Shown here in pieces: positions 21,757 to 30,152 of a stretch of 64,000 nucleotides of DNA. Numbering within the stretch: position 1 is the stretch's first letter; the number at the start of each line of letters is the position of its first letter. The notes beneath the pieces were generated by a model, which searched no databases, had not been told where the DNA came from, and saw only the letters and a list, made by a program, of their open reading frames with translations. The stretch comes from Chloroflexus sp. (GTDB lineage: Bacteria > Chloroflexota > Chloroflexia > Chloroflexales > Chloroflexaceae). The DNA lies in the NCBI GenBank assembly GCA_017743535.1, contig JAGHYT010000002.1, forward strand, positions 22,736-86,735, in the 5' to 3' direction. Position numbers and translations under genes: made by a program.

Positions 21757-22791
21757 CTACGGATGTAAACCGGTAAACGTCAGAGCTGTTGTCTCGGCAA
21801 ATCCACACATCAGGTTCATGCACTGTACGGCACTCCCTGCCGCTCCCTTCATCAAGTTATCAATTGCACAGATGCTGACGATCCGACGTGACGCTGGTTC
21901 GTAGGCGAAGCCAATGTCAGCATAATTGGTCCCGGCCACAATTTTTGGTTCAGGGTAGCGATAAATGCCTTGTCGCTCTTTCACGATGCGGATGAACGGT
22001 TGTTCGCGCGCAAAGGCTCGGTAGGCTTGCCAGAGATCCTTCTCGCTCAGATCGCGGCTGGCGAAGACGTGCACGGTCGCCAGCGCACCACGAACCAGCT
22101 CAATGGCAGTGATTGATAGATGCACGTTGCGCAAACCGGTTACCTGTTCGATTTCGGCCTGATGACGATGACCGACTGGTGCAAAGGAGCGCACAGCGCC
22201 GGATCGTTCTGGGTGATGGCTAGCTTCACTGACGGTTGCGCCGCCTTCCGATGAACCGACCTTGACGTCGGCAATGATGGGCCGATCCCGATCGATAAGA
22301 TCGGCCTGAACCAGCGGTAAAAGGGCGAGGTTGGTGGCAGTGGCGTTACAGCCAACACCACTGGCATAGCGAGCACCGGTGAGGGCCTGTCGGTTTACTT
22401 CTGGGAGGCCGTACACAAAGCGCTCAAGCCACTCTGGTGCCGGATGTGCACTCCCGTACCATTGCTGGTAGACCGCCGGATCACGCAGGCGAAAGTCTGC
22501 CGAACAATCAATGATTCGTTCAGCCAGGCTGGCGTATCGTTCTATCGACTGGGCGGCTTCGCCATGCGGAAGGGCCAGAAAAAGCAGATCGCACGGTTGC
22601 AGTTGATCGGGGTGAACAAACTGAAGGTTAGTACGCCCACGTAGGTTTGGGTGTACCTGATACAGATAACGTCCTGCATTCCGGGCACTCGTGGCCTGGA
22701 GAATTGAGACATGAGGATGATCGAGCAAGAGACGCAGGAGTTCACCGCCTACATAACCGCTCGCGCCTACAATGCTTACGCGCAGTGTCAT
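21757..22791 (-). CDS. lysY: [LysW]-aminoadipyl-phosphate / N-acetyl-gamma-glutamyl-phosphate reductase (ArgC family)
   Basis: GASGYVGGEL, LALPHG, GVGCNATA and IDNLMKGAAG motifs; lies directly after lysX. Confidence 0.88.
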   Translation of the reverse strand: MTLRVSIVGASGYVGGELLRLLLDHPHVSILQATSARNAGRYLYQVHPNLRGRTNLQFVHPDQLQPCDLLFLALPHGEAAQSIERYASLAERIIDCSADFRLRDPAVYQQWYGSAHPAPEWLERFVYGLPEVNRQALTGARYASGVGCNATATNLALLPLVQADLIDRDRPIIADVKVGSSEGGATVSEASHHPERSGAVRSFAPVGHRHQAEIEQVTGLRNVHLSITAIELVRGALATVHVFASRDLSEKDLWQAYRAFAREQPFIRIVKERQGIYRYPEPKIVAGTNYADIGFAYEPASRRIVSICAIDNLMKGAAGSAVQCMNLMCGFAETTALTFTGLHP

Positions 22792-22919
22792 TGCTTGCCT
22801 CGTAAGAAAAAAGAGAGACGTTTAAGATATGCTAGCTGGCGGGGATACGTTTAGCACCCGTCCCTGCCTGTGCCGACAAGATTTTACAGCATTTCTCCAA
22901 AATACATCTTGTGATGTCT

Positions 22920-22944
22920 GGGCGGGCTGGAAACCCGCCCCTAC
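22920..22944. repeat. GTAG-type REP palindrome
   Basis: Reverse complement reads GTAGGGGCGGGTTTCCAGCCCGCCC. Confidence 0.7.
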
Positions 22945-22985
22945 CAGTACGATGGCTTGAGTGTGGCCGGAGAACAATCGCTCAT

Positions 22986-23834
22986 CTACCCACGACCACG
23001 CCCAACATCAAGGACATAGTCGATAATACGGGCCGGAATATCAACGCCGGTCGTGTCGATGCTATTCCGAAACTCCATCGTGTAATTCACTTCGTTTACC
23101 AGTAATTCCCCTTCAGGTGTTTCCAGAATATCGATAGCGAGCACACCACCTCCAACGGCATGCGCGGCGCGCACGCTGAGATCGGCCAGTTCGGGGGTTA
23201 CCGGGCAGTTTGTTGCAACTCCACCGCGCGCTGTGTTCGTGATCCAGTGTGGGCTGGTACGGTAGATTGCCGCAATGCACTCGTCGCCGATCACGAAACT
23301 ACGAATATCGCGCCCCGGTTTGTTGATGTACTGTTGAATGTAGAAGATAGAGTGCTGATAGTTTCCCAGGACATCACGGTGCTCTAAAATCGCTTCAGCC
23401 GCATCCCGATCGTTGATTTTACTCACCATCCGCCCCCACGAGCCAATAACCGGCTTGAGCACCACCGGGTATCCGAGCTGTTCAATCGCTTCCAACGCGC
23501 TTTCTGGCGTAAAGGCCAGCAAACAGCGTGGCGTTGGCACACCAGCGTGGATAAGGGCCTGCGTGGTCAGGAATTTGTCGCCACAGGTGAGGGCAACGTG
23601 GTACGTATTGACGGTTGGTATGCCAGCATCGTTGAAGATTTTGAGCATGTAGAGTGCACGACTGTGCTGGATACATCGTTCGAGAACGACGTCGAAGGGG
23701 TAGGTTGTGGTATGCAGGTCAAAGATTTGCTCGCGGTCATCAATTTTGACATAATCGAGACCACGACGCTCAAGCTCCTGGAAGAGGAGTTTCTCTTCAG
23801 CGCGAATACGCGAACAAAGGACGGCAATGCGCAT
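22986..23834 (-). CDS. lysX: Alpha-aminoadipate--LysW ligase (ATP-grasp, RimK family)
   Basis: [18 protein letters not shown] and [12 protein letters not shown] motifs. Start trimmed to MRIAVL. Confidence 0.93.
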
Positions 23835-23896
23835 AGTTGGTTTCTCCCTTGAAACGAGCGGAGCCGATAGTTGCAGCTCCGCACCACCTTTTGTCT

Positions 23897-24064
23897 CTAC
23901 TCGCCCCAATCCTCTTCGACCTCAGGCGCCAGGACAAGGGTCGGTGGATCGAGACTCACAACTTCCAGTTCGGCGCCGCAATCAGGACAGGCAATGATTT
24001 CGTTGGTGAGCGTACCATCGGGTAGAGCAATCTGGGCGCCACATTCCGGGCATTCGGCATGCAT
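23897..24064 (-). CDS. lysW: Amino-group carrier protein LysW (copy 2)
   Basis: MHAECPECG...[10 protein letters not shown]...EVEEDWGE; 55 aa; upstream RBS AAAGGAG. Confidence 0.95.
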
Positions 24065-24094
24065 AGGGGTTGCTCCTTTCAATTCTCTATGTGC

Positions 24095-24262
24095 TTACTC
24101 ACCCCAATCCTCTTCGACCTCAGGCGCCAGGGCAAGGGTCGGTGGACTGAGACTGATAACCTCTAGCTCAGCACCACAATCAGGGCAGGCAATGATCTCG
24201 CTCTCAAGGGTATTGGCCGGCAGAGTGATGAGTGCGACACATTCAGGGCATTCGGCATGCAT
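24095..24262 (-). CDS. lysW: Amino-group carrier protein LysW (copy 1; absent from ORF track)
   Basis: Hand translation: [55 protein letters not shown]; RBS AAAGGAG. Confidence 0.93.
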
Positions 24263-24276
24263 TGCAAGTTCTCCTT

Positions 24277-25275
24277 TCAGGGTTGGATCGTCAACTGTTC
24301 AAGAATGGCATCAGCAACTTCACGGGTGGTAGCCTCACCACCAACATCAGGGGTACAAATTCCTGCGGTAGCCACGGCAGCGATCGCTCGCCGCAGGTGA
24401 TCGGCAGCTTGTGGCCGATTGAGCCAATCGAGCAACATCACCACACAGTTGAGAGCTGCGGTTGGATTGGCAATTCCACGTCCGGCAATATCAGGCGCTG
24501 CGCCATGTACCGGTTCAAAGAGCGCCCGATCCTGACCGAGATTGCTGCTGGCAGCAACACCCAGACCACCACCGTGAATGCAGGCGATATCCGACAGAAT
24601 ATCGCCGAATAGGTTCGTGGTGACAATGACATCAAAGCGTTGTGGTTGGGCAGCCAGTTGCATCGCTGCTACATCAACCAGTCGTTCTTCAAAGGTAAGC
24701 TCAGGGTAGTCGGCAGCGATCTCAAACGCCACGGTACGGAACAGACCGTCGCTGACCCGTAGCACGTTGGCTTTATGGACAATAGTCACTTTGCCGGGAT
24801 GACCGGCCGTCTGGCGTGTGCGGGCCAGTTCGCAGGCGGTACGGACAATTCGAGCCGATGCGGCGCGGGTAATGACTCGTTCGGTGATAGCGGTATTGCC
24901 GTCGTCTTCAAGTCGTTCCCGGCCACTGTACAGGTCTTCGGTATTTTCGCGCACGACGACTAGATCGACCCCTGGGCCAGTGGTAGGTCGGATGTTTGCG
25001 TAGAGATCGAGGGTGCGGCGTAATTCGACGATAGGACTGCGGTAACCAGGTACCGGATAGCTAGGTGAAGCGACGGCGCCAAAGAGGATCGCCGTTGCCT
25101 CACGGGCTAGCTCTAGAGTTGCGTCGGGTAGCGCCGTCCCCGTGCGCTGAAAAACACCCCATCCGGCTTCAGCTTCAATGAGCGTAAGGTCAGGGGCCAG
25201 TCGCCGTAGAGCATCTGTTGCAACGGCCATCACTTCCGGGCCGATCCCATCACCAGGAATCACGCAGATGTTCAT
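24277..25275 (-). CDS. Homoisocitrate dehydrogenase (isocitrate/isopropylmalate dehydrogenase family)
   Basis: [30 protein letters not shown] and [12 protein letters not shown] motifs; lysine-cluster context. Confidence 0.88.
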
Positions 25276-25775
25276 TGCCCTACCTCTCCGGGAAAGCGAC
25301 CGTACTGACGGTAGAAGGGGACGATGCCACCGGCTGCCCAGACTTCACGCAAAAAGAGTGGCGGTGGCGGCAAATGTATCACCCGGCCATCAGCAGTAGT
25401 AATGCGACTTTGCTCCAGATCAAGTTCGACCTCATCACCATCGGCAAGTTCCTTGGTCAAATCGGCGGTAAAGCAGGGAATGCCGAGATTCAGCGCATTA
25501 CGGAAGAAAATGCGCGCAAAGAGCGGGGCGATAATTGCGCCAATACCGACCATACGTAGCGCAAGAGGTGCGTATTCTCGTGAGCTACCGCAACCGAAAT
25601 TTTTCCCGGCCACGATAATATCACCAGGGCGCACATTTGGGGCGAAATCGGGGCGATGTTCGATAAATGGATACCGACGCAATTCGCTCTCGTCTTTGAG
25701 CATATACGGCGCATAACGACCAGGAACAATCTGGTCGGTGTTAACATCAGGGCCAAAAAGCCAGACACGAGCCAT
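25272..25775 (-). CDS. lysU: Homoaconitase small subunit (LeuD-like)
   Basis: VNTDQIVPGRY and AGKNFGCGSSRE motifs. Confidence 0.85.
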   Translation of the reverse strand: MARVWLFGPDVNTDQIVPGRYAPYMLKDESELRRYPFIEHRPDFAPNVRPGDIIVAGKNFGCGSSREYAPLALRMVGIGAIIAPLFARIFFRNALNLGIPCFTADLTKELADGDEVELDLEQSRITTADGRVIHLPPPPLFLREVWAAGGIVPFYRQYGRFPGEVGQ

Positions 25776-25792
25776 TGGATACCTCTCTTTCT

Positions 25793-27043
25793 TTAGTGAG
25801 CGACAGCCGGCGACCTATCCATCACCGTGCGTGGATCAGTCAGATAACCGGTAAGCGCAGTTGCGGCGGCTACTGCCGGTGAGGCCAGGTAAATCTGCGC
25901 TTCAGGGCTACCCATTCGCCCACGGAAGTTGCGGTTACCGGTAAAGACACACACCTCACCGGGGGCCAGCACACCCATATGGCGACCGATACACGCACCG
26001 CATCCCGGTGTACCGATGGTTGCCCCAGCCGCCAGCAGGGTGGCAAGCGTGCCATCAGCCGCGGCACGCTGTAATGCCTGGGCACTGGCCGGGACGACAA
26101 TCATCCGCACTCCAGGGGCCAGTCGCCGTCCGGCTAAAATCTGGGCAGCAACAGCCATATCTTCATAGTGACCGTTAGTACAGGTGCCGAGATAGACGAC
26201 ATCAACTGCTACCTGCCCTAGCTCACTCAGATCGACAACATTGTCAACATAATGCGGCGCCGAAACCTGTGGCTCGAGTCGGCTTAGATCGATGTCGACC
26301 ACCTCTTGATACTGAGCGTCGGCATCGATTGTCGGGACAAGCGGGCCGGTTACAGACAATCCGGTTGGTGGTACGATACCTGCTTTCGCGCCCATTTCAA
26401 TTGAAAGAGTCGCCAACGTCATACGCTCCATCACACTTAGATGCTCGACACCGTGCCACTCAATTGCAGCATACGTTGCTCCGTCAGCGCGTAAGATACG
26501 GGCAGCGCGGAGCGCCAGGTCTTTAGGACCGACTCCAAAGCCAAACGTTCCGTGAGCGCGCACTACAATTGTTTCAGGAACTCGTAGCCAGGTCTTACCG
26601 GTCGCAAGCGCCAGTGCAATATCGGTACTGCCCATACCAGTACCGAATGCGCCGATACAACCGTAGGCAGTACTGTGACTGTCACTACCCAAAATGAGCA
26701 TCCCTGGTTGAGCCAGGCCCTCTTCCACTAACACTGGATGCGAAATGCCGCGACCGACATCAAACAGGTTCGGAATACCCTGAGCACGAACCCAGCGTCG
26801 CACCTCTTGCTGCTTCTCGGCTGTCTGGACACTGGCCGCCGGGGCAACGTGGTCGATCACAACAGCTACCCGTTGAGCGTCCCATACCCGGTCGGCTCCC
26901 AATTCATTGTGCAAGATGCGAATGATCCCCGGGGCAAGACTATCGTGAACCATCACCAGATCGACATTTGCCGTCACCACATCGCCAGCACGTACCGGTC
27001 TTCCGGCGACACGGCTTAAAATCTGCTCACTCATTGTTGGCAT
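25793..27043 (-). CDS. lysT: Homoaconitase large subunit (LeuC-like, 4Fe-4S)
   Basis: DSHST, GTCTNG, CGACIG and NRNFRGRMG motifs. Confidence 0.88.
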   Translation of the reverse strand: MPTMSEQILSRVAGRPVRAGDVVTANVDLVMVHDSLAPGIIRILHNELGADRVWDAQRVAVVIDHVAPAASVQTAEKQQEVRRWVRAQGIPNLFDVGRGISHPVLVEEGLAQPGMLILGSDSHSTAYGCIGAFGTGMGSTDIALALATGKTWLRVPETIVVRAHGTFGFGVGPKDLALRAARILRADGATYAAIEWHGVEHLSVMERMTLATLSIEMGAKAGIVPPTGLSVTGPLVPTIDADAQYQEVVDIDLSRLEPQVSAPHYVDNVVDLSELGQVAVDVVYLGTCTNGHYEDMAVAAQILAGRRLAPGVRMIVVPASAQALQRAAADGTLATLLAAGATIGTPGCGACIGRHMGVLAPGEVCVFTGNRNFRGRMGSPEAQIYLASPAVAAATALTGYLTDPRTVMDRSPAVAH

Positions 27044-27064
27044 ATATGTATCCTCCGTTTACGT

Positions 27065-28192
27065 TTACTCGGCGTAGCTGTACAGAATCTCATCGATCAT
27101 CGCGCCATCGAGGTCGTGTTCATCACCAAGTGCCTTGATACGGGCCGCAGCAGCACGCGCCTGTGCTTCACTGAGCGTAATCCCTAATTCGCGGGCACGT
27201 TCAGCTACTGCATGCCAGCCCACCAACCGATGGGCAATCGCAATCGTGCGTTGGCGACCAAATAGATTTGGATCGAGCACTTCATAGCTACGTGGATCGG
27301 CCAGGACGGCTTTCGTATGCATACCGGCTTTGTGGTGGAACGCAGTCGGGCTGGTGATGCACTGATTAAACGGAATCTCAATTCCAAGCATCGTCGCTAC
27401 CGTCTCGTCAATTTTGGGCAGGAGATCGAGACGGTATCGTTGGACACGGCTCGGATCGATGCTGGCAATCCGCGCAATCATTCCACTCAAGCTGGCAATC
27501 CCGTTACGCTCACCAATACCAAGCACGGTGACATCGAGATGCGTAGCACCGGCTTCATACGCTGTAAAGGTATTAGCAATAGCGCAGCCGCTATCGTTAT
27601 GACCGTGAAACTCGATGTCGCATGTCACTTCGGCACGTACTGCGCGAACGACATCGTAGACCTGCCGCGGGGTGGCAATCCCTACCGTATCGGCGAGACC
27701 AATACGTTGTACACCCATTGTTTCGACTGCGCGATAAATACGGATTAGGTCAGCGAGGTCGGTGCGGAAGCTGTCTTCACACGAAAAGCGAACCTCGATA
27801 TCGTGATCGCGGAGGTAGGTAATCACTTGTTCAGCTTCAGCCAGAATCTCGCTCAGGCTACGACCGTGGCTGACCGTGCGTAACGGTTCAGACGTGGCAA
27901 ACAGTAGGTTCGCGCCCTGCGCACCGTGTTCAACGGCCAGCCGGGCATCGGCCATATGACAACGGATATGAGTGAGGATACGGGCACGAAAGCCGTGTCG
28001 GGCAATGGTTGCCAGATCGCGAGCACTTTGTGGTGATGCAGCGGGGGAAGTGAGTTCGATATACTCGATGCCAAAGGCATCAAGCATTTCAGCGATAGCC
28101 AGGCGTTGGGCTGAGGTAAAACGGGCGCTGGCGAATTGCTCGCCTTCGCGCAAAGTCGTATCAACGAAAAATAAGCGCTCAGGCAGTGACAT
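27065..28192 (-). CDS. hcs: Homocitrate synthase
   Basis: DTTLREGEQ, FSCEDSFR, ADTVG, HGHNDSGCA and HKAGMHTKAV motifs. Confidence 0.93.
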   Translation of the reverse strand: MSLPERLFFVDTTLREGEQFASARFTSAQRLAIAEMLDAFGIEYIELTSPAASPQSARDLATIARHGFRARILTHIRCHMADARLAVEHGAQGANLLFATSEPLRTVSHGRSLSEILAEAEQVITYLRDHDIEVRFSCEDSFRTDLADLIRIYRAVETMGVQRIGLADTVGIATPRQVYDVVRAVRAEVTCDIEFHGHNDSGCAIANTFTAYEAGATHLDVTVLGIGERNGIASLSGMIARIASIDPSRVQRYRLDLLPKIDETVATMLGIEIPFNQCITSPTAFHHKAGMHTKAVLADPRSYEVLDPNLFGRQRTIAIAHRLVGWHAVAERARELGITLSEAQARAAAARIKALGDEHDLDGAMIDEILYSYAE

Positions 28193-28289
28193 AGCGGAGC
28201 ACCTCTCTCACTTGACATGAGCCAAAGAGTTCTGGTCGGCAGTAGCGTGGCGTGTAAGCGACTGGGCTGACAGTTACGTACCGTTTCAT
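28179..28289 (-). CDS. Putative 36-aa uORF overlapping the homocitrate synthase start
   Basis: GGAGGG RBS followed by MKRYVTVSPVAYTPRYCRPELFGSCQVREVLRYVTA*; overlaps hcs by 14 nt. Confidence 0.4.
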   Translation of the reverse strand: MKRYVTVSPVAYTPRYCRPELFGSCQVREVLRYVTA

Positions 28290-28311
28290 AGTTCCCTCCA
28301 TACAAACTGTT

Positions 28312-28386
28312 GACCCGGCGCACCGTTGGTCTGGTGAGCCGGGTCTTGTCTCTTGCGCGCAGCAGACAAGCGTAGCTAACCAGACC
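28312..28386 (-). promoter_or_regulatory. Putative attenuator with mutually exclusive helices
   Basis: 8-bp stem 28338-45/28312-19 competes with an 8-bp pairing 28379-86/28328-35; nested 7-bp hairpin 28364-70/28345-51. Confidence 0.6.
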
Positions 28387-28444
28387 TTTCGTCCGGCTTC
28401 TTCGCGTGCTTGTTCTGCTTGGCGGAAAAGGTTACGTTTCTCAT
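28376..28444 (-). CDS. Lysine-rich leader peptide (22 aa)
   Basis: Hand translation: MRNVTFSAKQNKHAKKPDERSG*. Four Lys codons, directly upstream of the lysine cluster. Confidence 0.7.
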   Translation of the reverse strand: MRNVTFSAKQNKHAKKPDERSG

Positions 28445-28453
28445 AGCGCCACG

Positions 28454-28482
28454 AATATACCAGGAGTCGGGGGTTGTGTCAA
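28454..28482 (-). promoter_or_regulatory. Sigma70-type promoter of the lysine operon
   Basis: TTGACA (28482-77), 17 bp, TATATT (28459-54); 9 nt before the leader ATG. Confidence 0.75.
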
Positions 28483-28520
28483 GTGTGGCAATGTCGAAGA
28501 GATGGCTGTGCAATGTCCTC

Positions 28521-28724
28521 AGAGCCTAATCAAAAACCGGATTTCTTATTGGGAACGTACCGTGCTCGCGCAACCATTGCGTGAGGGGGGGCCAACATGC
28601 TTTCGCCAAGCTACGTCACCCCTTCCTTGCCTCGTGTGGGAGCGGAAGGGGGCCAGGGGGAAGGTGAGGGTGGCACCAGCCTGCTGAGTGCCCGATCAAA
28701 ACCACGAGTTTCCGATCACGCTCT
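28521..28724. repeat. Dispersed MITE/REP-like element, copy 2
   Basis: Starts AGAGCCTAATCAAAAA and ends TTTCCGATCACGCTCT (imperfect inverted repeat). Shares the core GTGTGGGAG..GGAAGGGGGCCAGGGGGAAGGTGAGGG with copy 1. Confidence 0.7.
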
Positions 28725-28986
28725 CAGTTTTTGAGAGAGTGTCTTTCACAGACTCGTACAGTTTTCCGAAGCGTGTGCGCAGCCAGCCCAGATTGCGTGG
28801 TGCGTAGCAATCGGAACCCGCTCTGCATTGCGATGATGGCTATGATCGGCGCGACTCCCATCTCCTGGTGTCAGTACAGCCGGGTAGGGATGAAAATAGT
28901 TTTTCAGACAGACGTTCATAGCGCCGCGGTGATGTCTTTTATAACGAAATAGTATGAATACACTCTTGAATTTAGAAAGATTTATG

Positions 28987-29015
28987 TTGACAAATTTTTT
29001 ATATTAGCATATACT
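28987..29015 (+). promoter_or_regulatory. Near-consensus sigma70 promoter
   Basis: TTGACA, 17 bp, TATACT. Confidence 0.7.
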
Positions 29016-29192
29016 TGCACACAATGTTAGCCGGTTCGCAGTGGCGACATCGCCCATCTGATGTTTCGGTTCCTTACCGTGTCACGGTCTGTTTTCGTCA
29101 AGTCGTATGTTAAACCTGATTGTTCGGAAGCATTCTTCTCATAACTTGAATAATCGTCTCACAGTACGGCGGATGAAACCTGATACATGCAC

Positions 29193-29213
29193 GGGCACAG
29201 CGCCGCTGTGCCC
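29193..29213. repeat. REP-like palindrome
   Basis: GGGCACAGCGCCGCTGTGCCC. Confidence 0.6.
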
Positions 29214-29339
29214 CAACCCGATCTTCTTCTGCGATAGGGTATTCTGGATAGGCGCTAAACCTGCTAGCACACACCGAAGTGGGATACGCTTACTATGTTC
29301 ACGCGGCACACGATAGATCACGATTGACGCAGGTATCTT

Positions 29340-30152
29340 ATGCGTATGCCTCACAACAATACTACTGCGGCGCCATCAGCATCGGTACGTCTGCGTCTGG
29401 TTGCTTTACCGGTTGAACACGGCGGCTGGGGGATGATAGGCGCACCGATACTGTTGGGATTGTGGTTAGCCCCATCACCGGCCGGGTTCTGGTTGAGTCT
29501 TGCTGCACTGGGTATCTTCCTTGTTCGTCAACCGCTCAAGCTCGTCGTGAGTGACTATCGGCAGGGCAAGCGTTACCTGAGAACGGCATGGGCAGAGCGA
29601 TTTTTGCTCGGCTACAGTGTGATTGCCCTTGTTGCGAGTGTGATGGCCTTCTGGCAAGCGATAGCTCCCTTCTGGCAACCAATTGTCCTGGCGATCCCTT
29701 TTGCCATCGGTCTATTGTATTACGATCTGCGAAAACAAAGCCGTAAGTTGGCTGCCGAAGTGTGTGGTTCGGTCGCAATGAGTGCTTTAGTGTCAGCTAT
29801 CGTCATGGCTGCCGGTTGGTCGCTATTGCCAGCACTCTTCATCTGGTTGCTGCTGGCAATGCAAACGGTTGCTGCAATCATTTACGTGCGCGTTCGGTTA
29901 CGACTGGCGCGCAACAAACCAGCTCAACGGACATTGCCACTTCTGCTCCATGGTGTGATGCTCGTTGTCGTGATCGGGTTTTTGCTGAGGGGTTGGGTAA
30001 GCTGGCTAGTTCCACTCGTTTTTGCTTTCTTGATGGTGCGGTGCTGGTTAGGACTGTTGCCGCATAGTCTTGCCACACCAACACCACTGGTTGGTGTGCA
30101 AGAGTTGGTCGTAAGCCTGGTGACGGTGACTGGGATCAGGTTTGGCGTGTGA
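29340..30152 (+). CDS. YwiC-like integral membrane protein
   Basis: LPVEHGGWG motif near the N-terminus; multiple TM segments. Confidence 0.75.
   Translation: MRMPHNNTTAAPSASVRLRLVALPVEHGGWGMIGAPILLGLWLAPSPAGFWLSLAALGIFLVRQPLKLVVSDYRQGKRYLRTAWAERFLLGYSVIALVASVMAFWQAIAPFWQPIVLAIPFAIGLLYYDLRKQSRKLAAEVCGSVAMSALVSAIVMAAGWSLLPALFIWLLLAMQTVAAIIYVRVRLRLARNKPAQRTLPLLLHGVMLVVVIGFLLRGWVSWLVPLVFAFLMVRCWLGLLPHSLATPTPLVGVQELVVSLVTVTGIRFGV

What the first reader, a model, noticed from the sequence alone, without database searches (positions are those of the whole stretch)
28312..28482. Unannotated Lys-rich leader peptide and attenuator controlling the aminoadipate lysine operon
Seen: promoter TTGACA-17-TATATT, then after 9 nt an essentially leaderless ORF MRNVTFSAKQNKHAKKPDERSG* with Lys at 9, 12, 15 and 16. 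Its last codons (GGTCTGGT) can pair with ACCAGACC inside the loop of a downstream 8-bp GC stem (GACCCGGC/GCCGGGTC). The logic fits ribosome-mediated attenuation: stalling at Lys frees the anti-terminator, while full translation lets the GC stem form. Known: leader-peptide attenuation of the hcs cluster is described in Thermus thermophilus. I know of no demonstration in Chloroflexota. The U-tract after the stem is weak (AACAGTTTGT), so the output may be Rho-dependent or translational.
Basis: partly seen in the sequence, partly recalled or inferred. Interest (0 to 1): 0.72.

Follow-up and report, generated by a model that had tools for sequence, protein, structure and literature searches.

The report
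Lysine leader-peptide attenuator before hcs operon
A 22-codon, lysine-codon-rich mini-gene and a set of competing RNA hairpins sit in front of the lysine-synthesis operon of this Chloroflexus genome and most likely turn the operon on when charged lysine tRNA runs short; this is a classic type of switch, conserved across the order but not yet catalogued.

Summary
Everything lies on the minus strand.

**What is there**
- A consensus promoter (28482-28454) sits 9 nt before a 22-codon ORF (28444-28376) with Lys at positions 9, 12, 15 and 16.
- After it come a strong hairpin (28345-28312) and a poor U-tract.

**Conservation**
- The leader is present in all 30 hcs loci fetched from 41 Chloroflexales genomes.
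- A covariance model found 76 copies in 96 loci, reaching Anaerolineae, Caldilineae and Fimbriimonadales.
- Lys codons interchange AAG/AAA.
- 11 of 12 terminator pairs show compensatory changes.
- Leader tails pair best with their own terminator.
- In other genera the same leader precedes hacA, or a lysE-like gene followed by lysX and lysY.

**Mechanism**
Folding with a ribosome mask gives the antiterminator only when the ribosome stalls at K15/K16. All other states give the terminator.

**Limits**
- There is no experiment and no transcript-end data.
- Chloroflexus lacks the clean U-tract seen in sister genera.
- Homology to the Thermus leader could not be tested.

**Verdict:** a well-supported new member of a known kind, of moderate interest.

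The parts
28454..28482 (-). Sigma-70-type promoter: TTGACA, 17-nt spacer (with TG extension), TATATT
   Evidence: scores it 11 of 12. The arrangement TTGACA-17-TATAnT-9-ATG is identical in 15 of 16 Chloroflexus species.
28376..28444 (-). Leader ORF MRNVTFSAKQNKHAKKPDERSG*. It starts 9 nt after the -10 box and has no Shine-Dalgarno sequence, so it is leaderless or nearly so.
   Evidence: Sequence. Conservation.
28397..28402 (-). Tandem Lys codons K15-K16 (AAG AAG), the predicted sensor codons. K9 is at 28420-28418 and K12 at 28411-28409.
   Evidence: These are the most conserved Lys positions, in 46 and 43 of 49 distinct leaders, with AAG/AAA interchange. Masking a ribosome at K15 or K16, and at no other position tested, gives the antiterminator as the lowest-energy fold.
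28391..28398 (-). Segment 1 (AGCCGGAC). It pairs with segment 2 to form the 1:2 hairpin.
   Evidence: Predicted by RNAalifold. Paired in 100% of cells in 20 distinct Chloroflexaceae sequences and in 96% of cells in 74 distinct sequences.
28375..28386 (-). Segment 2 (GGTCTGGTTAGC). It holds the last leader codons, the stop codon and one more base, and forms the 5' strand of the antiterminator.
28345..28370 (-). Middle hairpin, CTTGTCT paired with AGACAAG. It is enclosed by the antiterminator. Its 5' arm can instead pair with the Lys-codon region AAGCAGAACAAGC in untranslated RNA.
   Evidence: Folds. All seven of its pairs show changes on both sides in the 74-sequence alignment, but only 67% of cells are paired because the alignment is poor there.
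28328..28339 (-). Segment 3 (GCTCACCAGACC). It pairs with segment 2 and lies in the terminator 5' arm and loop.
   Evidence: Cells paired: 97.7% in the family alignment; the 7-bp core helix is 92% paired across 74 distinct sequences.
28312..28345 (-). Terminator-like hairpin, GACCCGGCTCACC paired with GGTGCGCCGGGTC, -23.9 kcal/mol
   Evidence: Eleven of 12 pairs show changes on both sides and 95% of cells are paired.
28300..28311 (-). Weak, interrupted U-tract (AACAGTTTGTAT)
   Evidence: Sister genera have TTTTTTGT directly after the stem.
28179..28299 (-). Second small ORF (sORF2). Its RBS GGAGGG is at 28299-28294 and its ATG at 28289. It reads MKRYVTVSPVAYTPRYCRPELFGSCQVREVLRYVTA*. Its stop lies 14 nt inside hcs.
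   Evidence: In the 15-codon core, all 15 third positions vary, against 5 first and 3 second positions. No conserved RNA structure was found. Only three protein clusters match it in the protein database.
21757..28192 (-). The controlled operon: hcs, hacA, hacB, a homoisocitrate dehydrogenase-like gene, lysW, lysW, lysX, and a lysY/argC-type reductase
   Evidence: NCBIfam matches.

Best explanation
This is a ribosome-mediated (leader-peptide) transcription attenuator that senses charged tRNA-Lys. It controls the aminoadipate-pathway lysine operon, from hcs to lysY.

Transcription starts about 2-4 nt before the leader AUG (inferred from promoter spacing). Four outcomes follow from where the ribosome is.

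1. Lysine scarce. The ribosome stalls at the tandem AAG AAG (K15-K16) and covers segment 1 (AGCCGGAC). Segment 2 (GGUCUGGUUAGC) is left free. It pairs with segment 3 (GCUCACCAGACC) as soon as that is transcribed. The resulting antiterminator encloses the middle hairpin and uses 7 of the 13 positions of the terminator's 5' arm. The remaining six could pair only as a pseudoknot. RNA polymerase then reads on into sORF2 and hcs.
2. Lysine plentiful. The ribosome reaches the UAG and covers segment 2. The 12-bp GC-rich hairpin forms and transcription stops.
3. No translation. Segment 1 pairs with segment 2, the Lys-codon region pairs with the 5' arm of the middle hairpin, and the terminator again forms.
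4. Stalling at K9 or K12 leaves segment 1 free, so it is predicted not to give read-through.

What is shown: the sequence anatomy, its conservation and covariation, and its association with lysine genes.

What is inferred: translation of the leader, the start site, stalling, and termination. How efficiently the Chloroflexus hairpin terminates with its poor U-tract is the weakest step.
For: 1. All 30 hcs loci fetched from relatives carry a short ORF of the form ...K-Q-x-K-R-x-K-K-P-x-x-R-S-G*, followed by a strong hairpin.
2. In 49 distinct leaders, Lys is kept at the four positions in 41, 38, 46 and 43 cases, with AAG/AAA interchange. The N-terminus varies in both sequence and length.
3. A covariance model built from 21 sequences finds 76 elements in 96 loci, all upstream of hcs or other lysine genes. 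It finds exactly one strong copy in the window's own genome.
4. Eleven of 12 terminator pairs show compensatory changes. The covariation score is 0.361, against 0.143 for shuffles (0 of 500 reach it) and at most 0.087 for slid controls.
5. The core of the antiterminator is 92-98% paired. In divergent lineages the leader tail pairs best with its own terminator: L025 -25.6 kcal/mol with its own versus -14.8 to -20.4 with others, and L024 -20.8 versus -12.0 to -15.6 outside its own genus.
6. In Roseiflexus the same leader precedes hacA. In another genus it precedes a LysE-family gene followed by lysX and lysY.
7. Ribosome-masked folding gives the antiterminator as the lowest-energy fold (-33.3 kcal/mol) only for stalls at K15 or K16. 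It gives the terminator for no ribosome, for stalls at K9 or K12, and for a ribosome at the stop codon.
8. A weak second model hit in the same genome is a leader ending ...ARSG*. Relatives have runs of Arg codons there (HRRRRRCRR), and it sits upstream of argJ. The same scaffold therefore carries different sensor codons in front of a different amino-acid gene.
9. No Rfam family matches the region.
Against: - There is no experimental or transcript-end evidence. Only assembled metatranscriptome contigs were available. They span the leader and hcs and run on upstream of the promoter, so they show neither the start nor the stop.
- In the genus Chloroflexus the tail after the stem is AACAGUUUGU or AAUUGUUUGU, not a U-run.
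- The antiterminator overlaps only the upper half of the terminator's 5' arm. It is roughly equal in energy to the terminator (-33.3 versus -33.8 kcal/mol), so the switch must be kinetic.
- Most antiterminator pairs are conserved rather than covarying.
- The alignment used for the covariation counts was fitted to the model's structure, which favours that structure.
- The leaderless start is inferred from promoter spacing alone.
Confidence: 0.8

Rival explanations
1. The sensing is the same (ribosome stalling at Lys codons), but in Chloroflexus the output is not intrinsic termination. The untranslated, hairpin-bearing RNA after the leader stop would be a target for Rho. Alternatively, the hairpin acts as a pause or processing site.
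For: The U-tract is weak in all 16 Chloroflexus species. The genome encodes two Rho proteins that score above the family cut-off. Genome-wide, only about 10% of strong perfect hairpins are followed by 5 or more T in the next 8 nt.
Against: Sister genera with a homologous leader have canonical hairpin-plus-T-run terminators, so intrinsic termination is probably the ancestral output. The roughly 95 nt between the leader stop and sORF2 are almost fully base-paired, which makes them a poor Rho loading site. The weak T enrichment after hairpins in this genome peaks at +5 to +10, and that is where the UUUGU lies.
Confidence: 0.12
2. The conserved peptide tail (K-K-P-D-x-R-S-G) is itself a stalling or arrest sequence. 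A polybasic stretch followed by proline could depend on EF-P. The switch would then report general translation capacity, or a small molecule sensed in the exit tunnel, rather than tRNA-Lys charging.
For: Pro after KK is present in 45 of 49 leaders, and the S-G end is nearly invariant. An earlier follow-up note on another genome raised the same idea, but it is unchecked.
Against: The conserved non-Lys codons coincide with segments 1 and 2 of the RNA structure (GCCGGAC and GGUCUGG), which accounts for their conservation. Caldilineae-type variants end in ...PDHTVW* but keep the Lys codons. The paralogous scaffold upstream of argJ replaces the Lys codons with Arg codons. The element is restricted to lysine genes.
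Confidence: 0.05
3. The RNA is regulated directly by a ligand or a protein (a riboswitch or an RNA-binding regulator), and the ORF is incidental.
For: The leader RNA is highly structured and conserved.
Against: There is no match to the lysine riboswitch, to the T-box, or to any other Rfam family, even at E up to 10. The reading frame, the stop position and the Lys codons are conserved with synonymous changes. No helix beyond the four attenuator segments and one spacer hairpin is conserved.
Confidence: 0.03

Closest known systems
Leader-peptide attenuator of the Thermus thermophilus lysine (aminoadipate) gene cluster (Tsubouchi et al., J Biol Chem 2005; cited from my own knowledge, the paper is not in the searchable library)
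   Same: Both lie upstream of hcs in a bacterial aminoadipate-pathway lysine cluster. Both have a short leader ORF with tandem Lys codons, alternative stem-loops, and a terminator before the first gene.
   Different: The phylum is different. Sequence homology could not be tested because no Thermus sequence could be fetched. This leader is 22 codons with four Lys, appears leaderless in Chloroflexus, has an extra middle hairpin, has a degenerate U-tract, and is followed by a conserved translated small ORF that overlaps the hcs start.
Classical attenuators of enterobacterial amino-acid operons (trp, his, leu, thr, pheA, ilv)
   Same: Both use four-segment logic (1:2, 2:3, 3:4). The regulatory codons lie just upstream of segment 1. 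The stop codon lies in or next to segment 2. Termination results both without translation and with complete translation.
   Different: The regulatory amino acid is lysine; no lysine attenuator of this kind is known to me in Enterobacteria. Only two tandem codons act as the predicted sensor. Translation probably starts without a Shine-Dalgarno sequence. The antiterminator overlaps only part of the terminator arm.
Lysine riboswitch (L-box, Rfam RF00168)
   Same: Both would give lysine-responsive control of lysine genes through a terminator in the 5' leader.
   Different: There is no match to that model, and no five-helix aptamer is present. Sensing here would go through translation of Lys codons.
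Tandem lysine leader attenuators noted earlier in this scan in Anaerolineae and related Chloroflexota (unpublished AI notes)
   Same: The leader family is the same (...KKPDxxSG* followed by a terminator, upstream of hcs). My model hits both copies in Anaerolineae loci L076 and L077 and in loci L085 and L087, labelled Caldilineae and unclassified Chloroflexota.
   Different: Chloroflexus has one attenuator only. The place of a second unit is taken by sORF2, which has no terminator of its own and overlaps hcs.

Membership tests
Ribosome-mediated leader-peptide transcription attenuators | A short ORF in the 5' leader, enriched in codons for the end-product amino acid | tested here: met
   Four Lys in 22 codons. 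The four positions are kept in 38-46 of 49 distinct leaders, with AAG/AAA interchange.
Ribosome-mediated leader-peptide transcription attenuators | An intrinsic terminator (GC-rich hairpin plus U-run) between the leader ORF and the first structural gene | tested here: inconclusive
   The hairpin is -23.9 kcal/mol and 11 of 12 pairs covary. The tail in Chloroflexus is AACAGUUUGU. Sister genera have clean T-runs.
Ribosome-mediated leader-peptide transcription attenuators | An antiterminator formed by the 3' end of the leader ORF and the 5' arm of the terminator, mutually exclusive with the terminator | tested here: met
   An 8+3-bp helix is 98% paired within the family. Cognate pairings beat non-cognate ones in the divergent lineages, most clearly L024, L025 and L028. 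The overlap with the terminator arm is partial (7 of 13 positions). The remaining pairs would need a pseudoknot.
Ribosome-mediated leader-peptide transcription attenuators | A 1:2 hairpin that sequesters segment 2 when the ribosome is absent or stalled too early | tested here: met
   100% of cells paired; 96%.
Ribosome-mediated leader-peptide transcription attenuators | Geometry: a ribosome stalled at the regulatory codons masks segment 1 but not segment 2, and a ribosome at the stop codon masks segment 2 | tested here: met
   Masking 13 nt downstream of the first base of the A-site codon at K15 or K16 ends 0-3 nt before GGUCUGG. The antiterminator is the lowest-energy fold only in that case. 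This is modelling only.
Ribosome-mediated leader-peptide transcription attenuators | Amino-acid-dependent read-through shown by experiment | not testable with these tools
   Only assembled RNA contigs were available, and they do not resolve transcript ends.
Thermus thermophilus lysine-cluster leader attenuator | Located in the 5' leader of the hcs-headed aminoadipate lysine cluster, with tandem Lys codons | tested here: met
Thermus thermophilus lysine-cluster leader attenuator | Sequence or structure homology to the Thermus leader | not testable with these tools
   No Thermus locus was among the 80 returned. The control genomes carry no handles. The paper is not held in the library.
Lysine riboswitch (RF00168) and T-box leaders | A match to the Rfam covariance model | tested here: not met
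   cmscan at E up to 10 over 27900-29400, both strands, found only two chance-level hits elsewhere in that stretch.

The most novel reading that the evidence does not exclude
The hcs leader of Chloroflexaceae may be a two-tier device built from a reusable scaffold.

- Tier one is the leaderless Lys-codon attenuator.
- Tier two is sORF2, a translated micropeptide under purifying selection with the core (Y/W)TPR(Y/R)(C/V)RPELFG(S/A)CQ. Its stop lies 14 nt inside hcs. Its ribosomes would gate hcs translation. Alternatively, the peptide itself may act on homocitrate synthase or as a nascent-chain sensor.

In more basal Chloroflexia the N-terminus of sORF2 is Lys-rich (MKSLKKQLKSKR...), which suggests a translational lysine checkpoint that Chloroflexus has since repurposed.

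The same '...RSG*' scaffold carries Arg codons upstream of argJ. This points to modular evolution of attenuators by swapping the sensor codons.
Probability: 0.2. Interest if true: 0.6.

Novelty: new member of a known kind. Interest (0 to 1): 0.4.

Why it matters
Leader-peptide attenuation has been tested experimentally almost only in Proteobacteria, Actinobacteria and, for lysine, Thermus. I found this lysine attenuator family in neither Rfam nor the searchable literature.

- It gives a concrete, testable regulatory element for the aminoadipate lysine pathway in Chloroflexota.
- It gives annotators a reason to call two small ORFs that are almost never annotated.
- It offers a natural series in which to study how much U-tract an attenuator needs: clean U-tracts in Oscillochloris, Chloroploca and Roseiflexus, and a degenerate one in Chloroflexus.
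- The apparently leaderless leader ORF raises the question of how transcription and translation are synchronised when the ribosome loads on a 5'-terminal AUG.

Tried and rejected
- **Rfam scan of 27900-29400 at E up to 10.** Nothing relevant was found, so a riboswitch or T-box is rejected.
- **RNA evidence.** Three searches for RNA runs found only assembled contigs.
  - Contigs from hot-spring mat metatranscriptomes cover the leader and hcs in related strains. They continue upstream of the promoter and show no ends, so they are uninformative about the start site or termination.
  - In C. aurantiacus, two small runs give a contig that starts at L005:1402, just after the attenuator. Another contig spans 1271-1536. 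Depths are only 5-14, so I draw no conclusion.
- **Equilibrium folding of the whole leader.** It always shows the terminator. Only masked and co-transcriptional folds show the antiterminator.
- **Thermus comparison.** The control genomes of the genome search give no sequence.
- **Literature.** Seven searches found no description of a lysine leader in Chloroflexota, and the Thermus paper is not held.
- **Conserved RNA structure in the sORF2 region.** None was found; the consensus energy is -1.4 kcal/mol.
- **Masked folding of the Arg-run leader.** It did not give a clear antiterminator, so that element stays a side observation.
- **Chance ORF.** Rejected on conservation.

Full report
**Observation**

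The finding lies on the minus strand.

- The pattern scan gives TTGACA (28482-28477), a 17-nt spacer ending in TGG, then TATATT (28459-28454). This is 11 of 12 matches with a TG extension, the best promoter-like site in a 20-kb stretch.
- Nine bases later, with no Shine-Dalgarno sequence, ATG 28444 opens MRNVTFSAKQNKHAKKPDERSG*, which stops at 28376. Lys AAG codons are at positions 9, 12, 15 and 16.
- GGTCTGGT (28386-28379) is complementary to ACCAGACC (28335-28328).
GACCCGGCTCACC pairs with GGTGCGCCGGGTC (28345-28312) in 12 pairs with one mismatch, at -23.9 kcal/mol.
- The tail is AACAGTTTGTAT.
  - a hairpin between AGCCGGAC (28398-28391, directly after K16) and GTCTGGTT;
  - a middle hairpin, CTTGTCT with AGACAAG (28370-28345);
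  - a second small ORF (RBS GGAGGG, ATG 28289, TGA 28179) whose stop lies 14 nt inside the next gene.

**Context**

- The downstream genes are homocitrate synthase (above the equivalog cut-off), the homoaconitase large and small subunits, a homoisocitrate dehydrogenase-like gene, two lysW genes, lysX, and a lysY/argC-type reductase.
- This is the aminoadipate lysine operon, spanning 28192 to 21757.
- The organism is a Chloroflexus. The closest named record is Chloroflexus sp. MS-G, with 99% HCS identity.

**Conservation**

- A protein search found an hcs ortholog in 33 of 41 related genomes, and I read the upstream regions of 30.
- Every one has a short ORF of the form ...(S/T/A)K-Q-x-K-(R/H)-x-K-K-P-(D/A)-x-R-S-G*, followed by a strong hairpin.
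- Outside the genus Chloroflexus the hairpin is followed directly by a T-run (GGGTTTTTTGT and similar). Within the genus, all 16 species have (C/T)AATTGTTTGT or the like.
- In 49 distinct leaders aligned on the stop codon, Lys occupies positions -14, -11, -8 and -7 in 41, 38, 46 and 43 cases. AAG and AAA both occur; at -8 the split is 32 to 14. The N-terminal part varies freely in sequence and length.
- This is the pattern expected if the codons are read as lysine codons. It is not what a nucleotide motif alone would give.
- The promoter arrangement TTGACA-17-TATAnT-9-ATG is exact in 15 of 16 Chloroflexus species. Other genera have longer 5' leaders, some with a Shine-Dalgarno sequence.

**RNA structure**

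- RNAalifold on 21 Chloroflexaceae sequences predicts the 1:2 hairpin and the terminator.
- On that alignment, cells paired are 100% for the 1:2 hairpin, 92% for the terminator and 97.7% for the antiterminator.
- A covariance model built from this alignment found 76 elements in 96 loci.
- On the resulting 74 distinct sequences:
  - 11 of 12 terminator pairs show changes on both sides, and 95% of cells are paired;
  - the covariation score is 0.361, against 0.143 for shuffles (0 of 500 reach it) and at most 0.087 for slid partners.
  - That alignment was fitted to the model's structure, so these numbers lean towards it.
- The antiterminator core is 92% paired, mostly by conservation. Nineteen cells have double changes, against 8.0 ± 2.3 in shuffles.
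- Independent support comes from lineages too divergent to align well.
  - In L025 and L029 the tail GGTCTGGC pairs with GCCAGACC.
  - In Herpetosiphon (L024, L028) the tail GCGAGTCT mimics the terminator's 3' arm.
  - In the duplex-energy matrix these divergent tails pair best with their own terminator. L025 gives -25.6 kcal/mol with its own versus -14.8 to -20.4 with others. L024 gives -20.8 versus -12.0 to -15.6 outside its own genus.

**Link to lysine genes**

- The model finds one strong copy in the window's own genome.
- It finds a copy in 37 of 151 genomes sampled across the class.
- In Roseiflexus the same leader (MHSLFVKQVKQSKKPDSWSG*) and terminator sit directly before the homoaconitase large-subunit gene. 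I identify the strain as Roseiflexus sp. RS-1 from the contig length, 5,801,598 bases, which I know from memory.
- In another genus the leader precedes a LysE-family gene followed by lysX and lysY.
- The leader type also occurs before hcs in Anaerolineae (often twice in tandem), in Caldilineae (a variant ending ...VW*) and in Fimbriimonadales of the Armatimonadota. It is absent from the Limnocylindria loci.

**Mechanism by modelling**

I masked the RNA from the 5' end to 13 nt past the first base of the A-site codon and folded the rest.

| Ribosome state | Lowest-energy fold once the terminator's 3' arm is transcribed |
|---|---|
| No ribosome | The Lys-codon region pairs with the 5' arm of the middle hairpin, segments 1 and 2 pair, and the terminator forms (-59.3 kcal/mol) |
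| Stalled at K9 or K12 | Segment 1 is free, the 1:2 hairpin forms, and the terminator forms |
| Stalled at K15 or K16 | Antiterminator (segment 2 with segment 3) enclosing the middle hairpin (-33.3 kcal/mol) |
| At the stop codon | Segment 2 is covered and the terminator forms |

- Before the 3' arm is transcribed, the antiterminator is the best fold in every case in which segment 2 is free.
- The two states are close in energy (-33.3 versus -33.8 kcal/mol for the longer RNA), so the decision must be kinetic, as in classical attenuators.
- The tandem K15-K16, the most conserved Lys pair, is therefore the predicted sensor.

**The weak U-tract**

- The genome encodes two Rho proteins above the family cut-off.
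- In a crude genome-wide survey, only about 10% of 792 strong perfect hairpins are followed by 5 or more T in the next 8 nt. T enrichment is slight and peaks at +5 to +10.
- Poor U-tracts may therefore be the norm in this organism, and UUUGU at +6 to +10 fits that pattern.
- I cannot decide between intrinsic and factor-assisted termination.

**Internal control**

- The only other model hit in the genome is weak (E = 0.125). It is a 33-codon ORF ending ...QPVARSG*, followed by a hairpin, upstream of a histidine-phosphatase-family gene and argJ.
- In other Chloroflexus species the ORF carries runs such as HRRRRRCRR.
- The same tail and layout, with Arg codons before an arginine gene, is what codon-sensing attenuation predicts.
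- Masked folding of that element was not clear-cut.

**The second small ORF (sORF2)**

- The core (Y/W)TPR(Y/R)(C/V)RPELFG(S/A)CQ is kept across Chloroflexaceae.
- All 15 third codon positions vary, against only 5 first and 3 second positions. Pairwise codon differences are 2349 synonymous and 641 non-synonymous.
- No conserved RNA structure was found there.
- It is therefore a translated peptide.
- Only three clusters in the protein database match it, and no Pfam or NCBIfam family does.
- Its stop always lies about 14 nt inside hcs. In deeper Chloroflexia lineages its N-terminus is Lys-rich (MKSLKKQLKSKR..., MATLKQLKR...).
- Its role is open. Possibilities are translational coupling to hcs, occlusion of the hcs start, or an activity of the peptide itself.

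**Comparison with what is known**

- The mechanism matches classical attenuation. The closest specific case is the lysine leader of Thermus thermophilus.
- I cite that case from memory. The paper is not in the library, and no Thermus sequence could be fetched.
- No Rfam family matches, and seven literature searches found no description in Chloroflexota.
- Earlier notes of this scan describe the same leader family, often in tandem, in Anaerolineae. My own data show the tandem form in L076, L077, L085 and L087.

**Verdict**

I rate it a new member of a known kind, of moderate interest. The most interesting loose ends are the output mode in Chloroflexus, the leaderless start, and sORF2.

Noticed in passing
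window 28179-28299 (minus strand): A conserved translated small ORF (36 aa, core YTPRYCRPELFGSCQ) lies between the attenuator and hcs. Its stop is 14 nt inside hcs. It is under purifying selection, matches no known family, and is almost never annotated.
   Followed up: partly
L032:1470-1680 minus strand (own genome, contig C62:82170-82380): A second attenuator-like unit on the same scaffold. The leader is MSVIIQHCNTHSSLAVCHNRRHRRHSQPVARSG*, with runs such as HRRRRRCRR in other Chloroflexus species. A hairpin follows. It lies upstream of a histidine-phosphatase-family gene and argJ, and is probably an arginine attenuator.
   Followed up: partly
window 28633-28670: A G-rich motif of about 38 nt (GGGAGMGGAAGGGGGCYRGGGGGAAGGTGAGGG) lies upstream of the promoter. 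It is a dispersed repeat with at least 58 copies in the genome, allowing up to 6 mismatches. It appears at very high depth in mat metatranscriptome contigs.
   Followed up: partly
window 23897-24262 (minus strand): Two adjacent lysW genes (55 and 61 aa by ORF call) both score above the LysW equivalog cut-off. They lie between the dehydrogenase gene and lysX.
   Followed up: partly
L005:1190-1250 (C. aurantiacus-like genome G007): The -10 region and start of the leader (ATATATTCGTGGCA) are duplicated in tandem. This is the only one of the 16 Chloroflexus species that lacks the exact TTGACA-17-TATAnT-9-ATG spacing.
   Followed up: no
L033:280-480 and L034:350-1110: The same lysine leader and terminator precede hacA in Roseiflexus. 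In another genus of that family they precede a LysE-family translocator gene followed by lysX and lysY. The regulon's first gene therefore differs between lineages.
   Followed up: partly
L036:265-410: A weak model hit has a similar tail (..GRTSG*) and terminator, but the leader is rich in Asn and Gln and has no Lys (MRHISFNRISGGNQSQQGNQPGRTSG*). It lies upstream of an AzlC-family gene.
   Followed up: no
window 28987-29015 (plus strand): A second promoter-like site scoring 11 of 12 (TTGACA-17-TATACT) faces the opposite way, about 325 nt before the ORF that starts at 29340.
   Followed up: no
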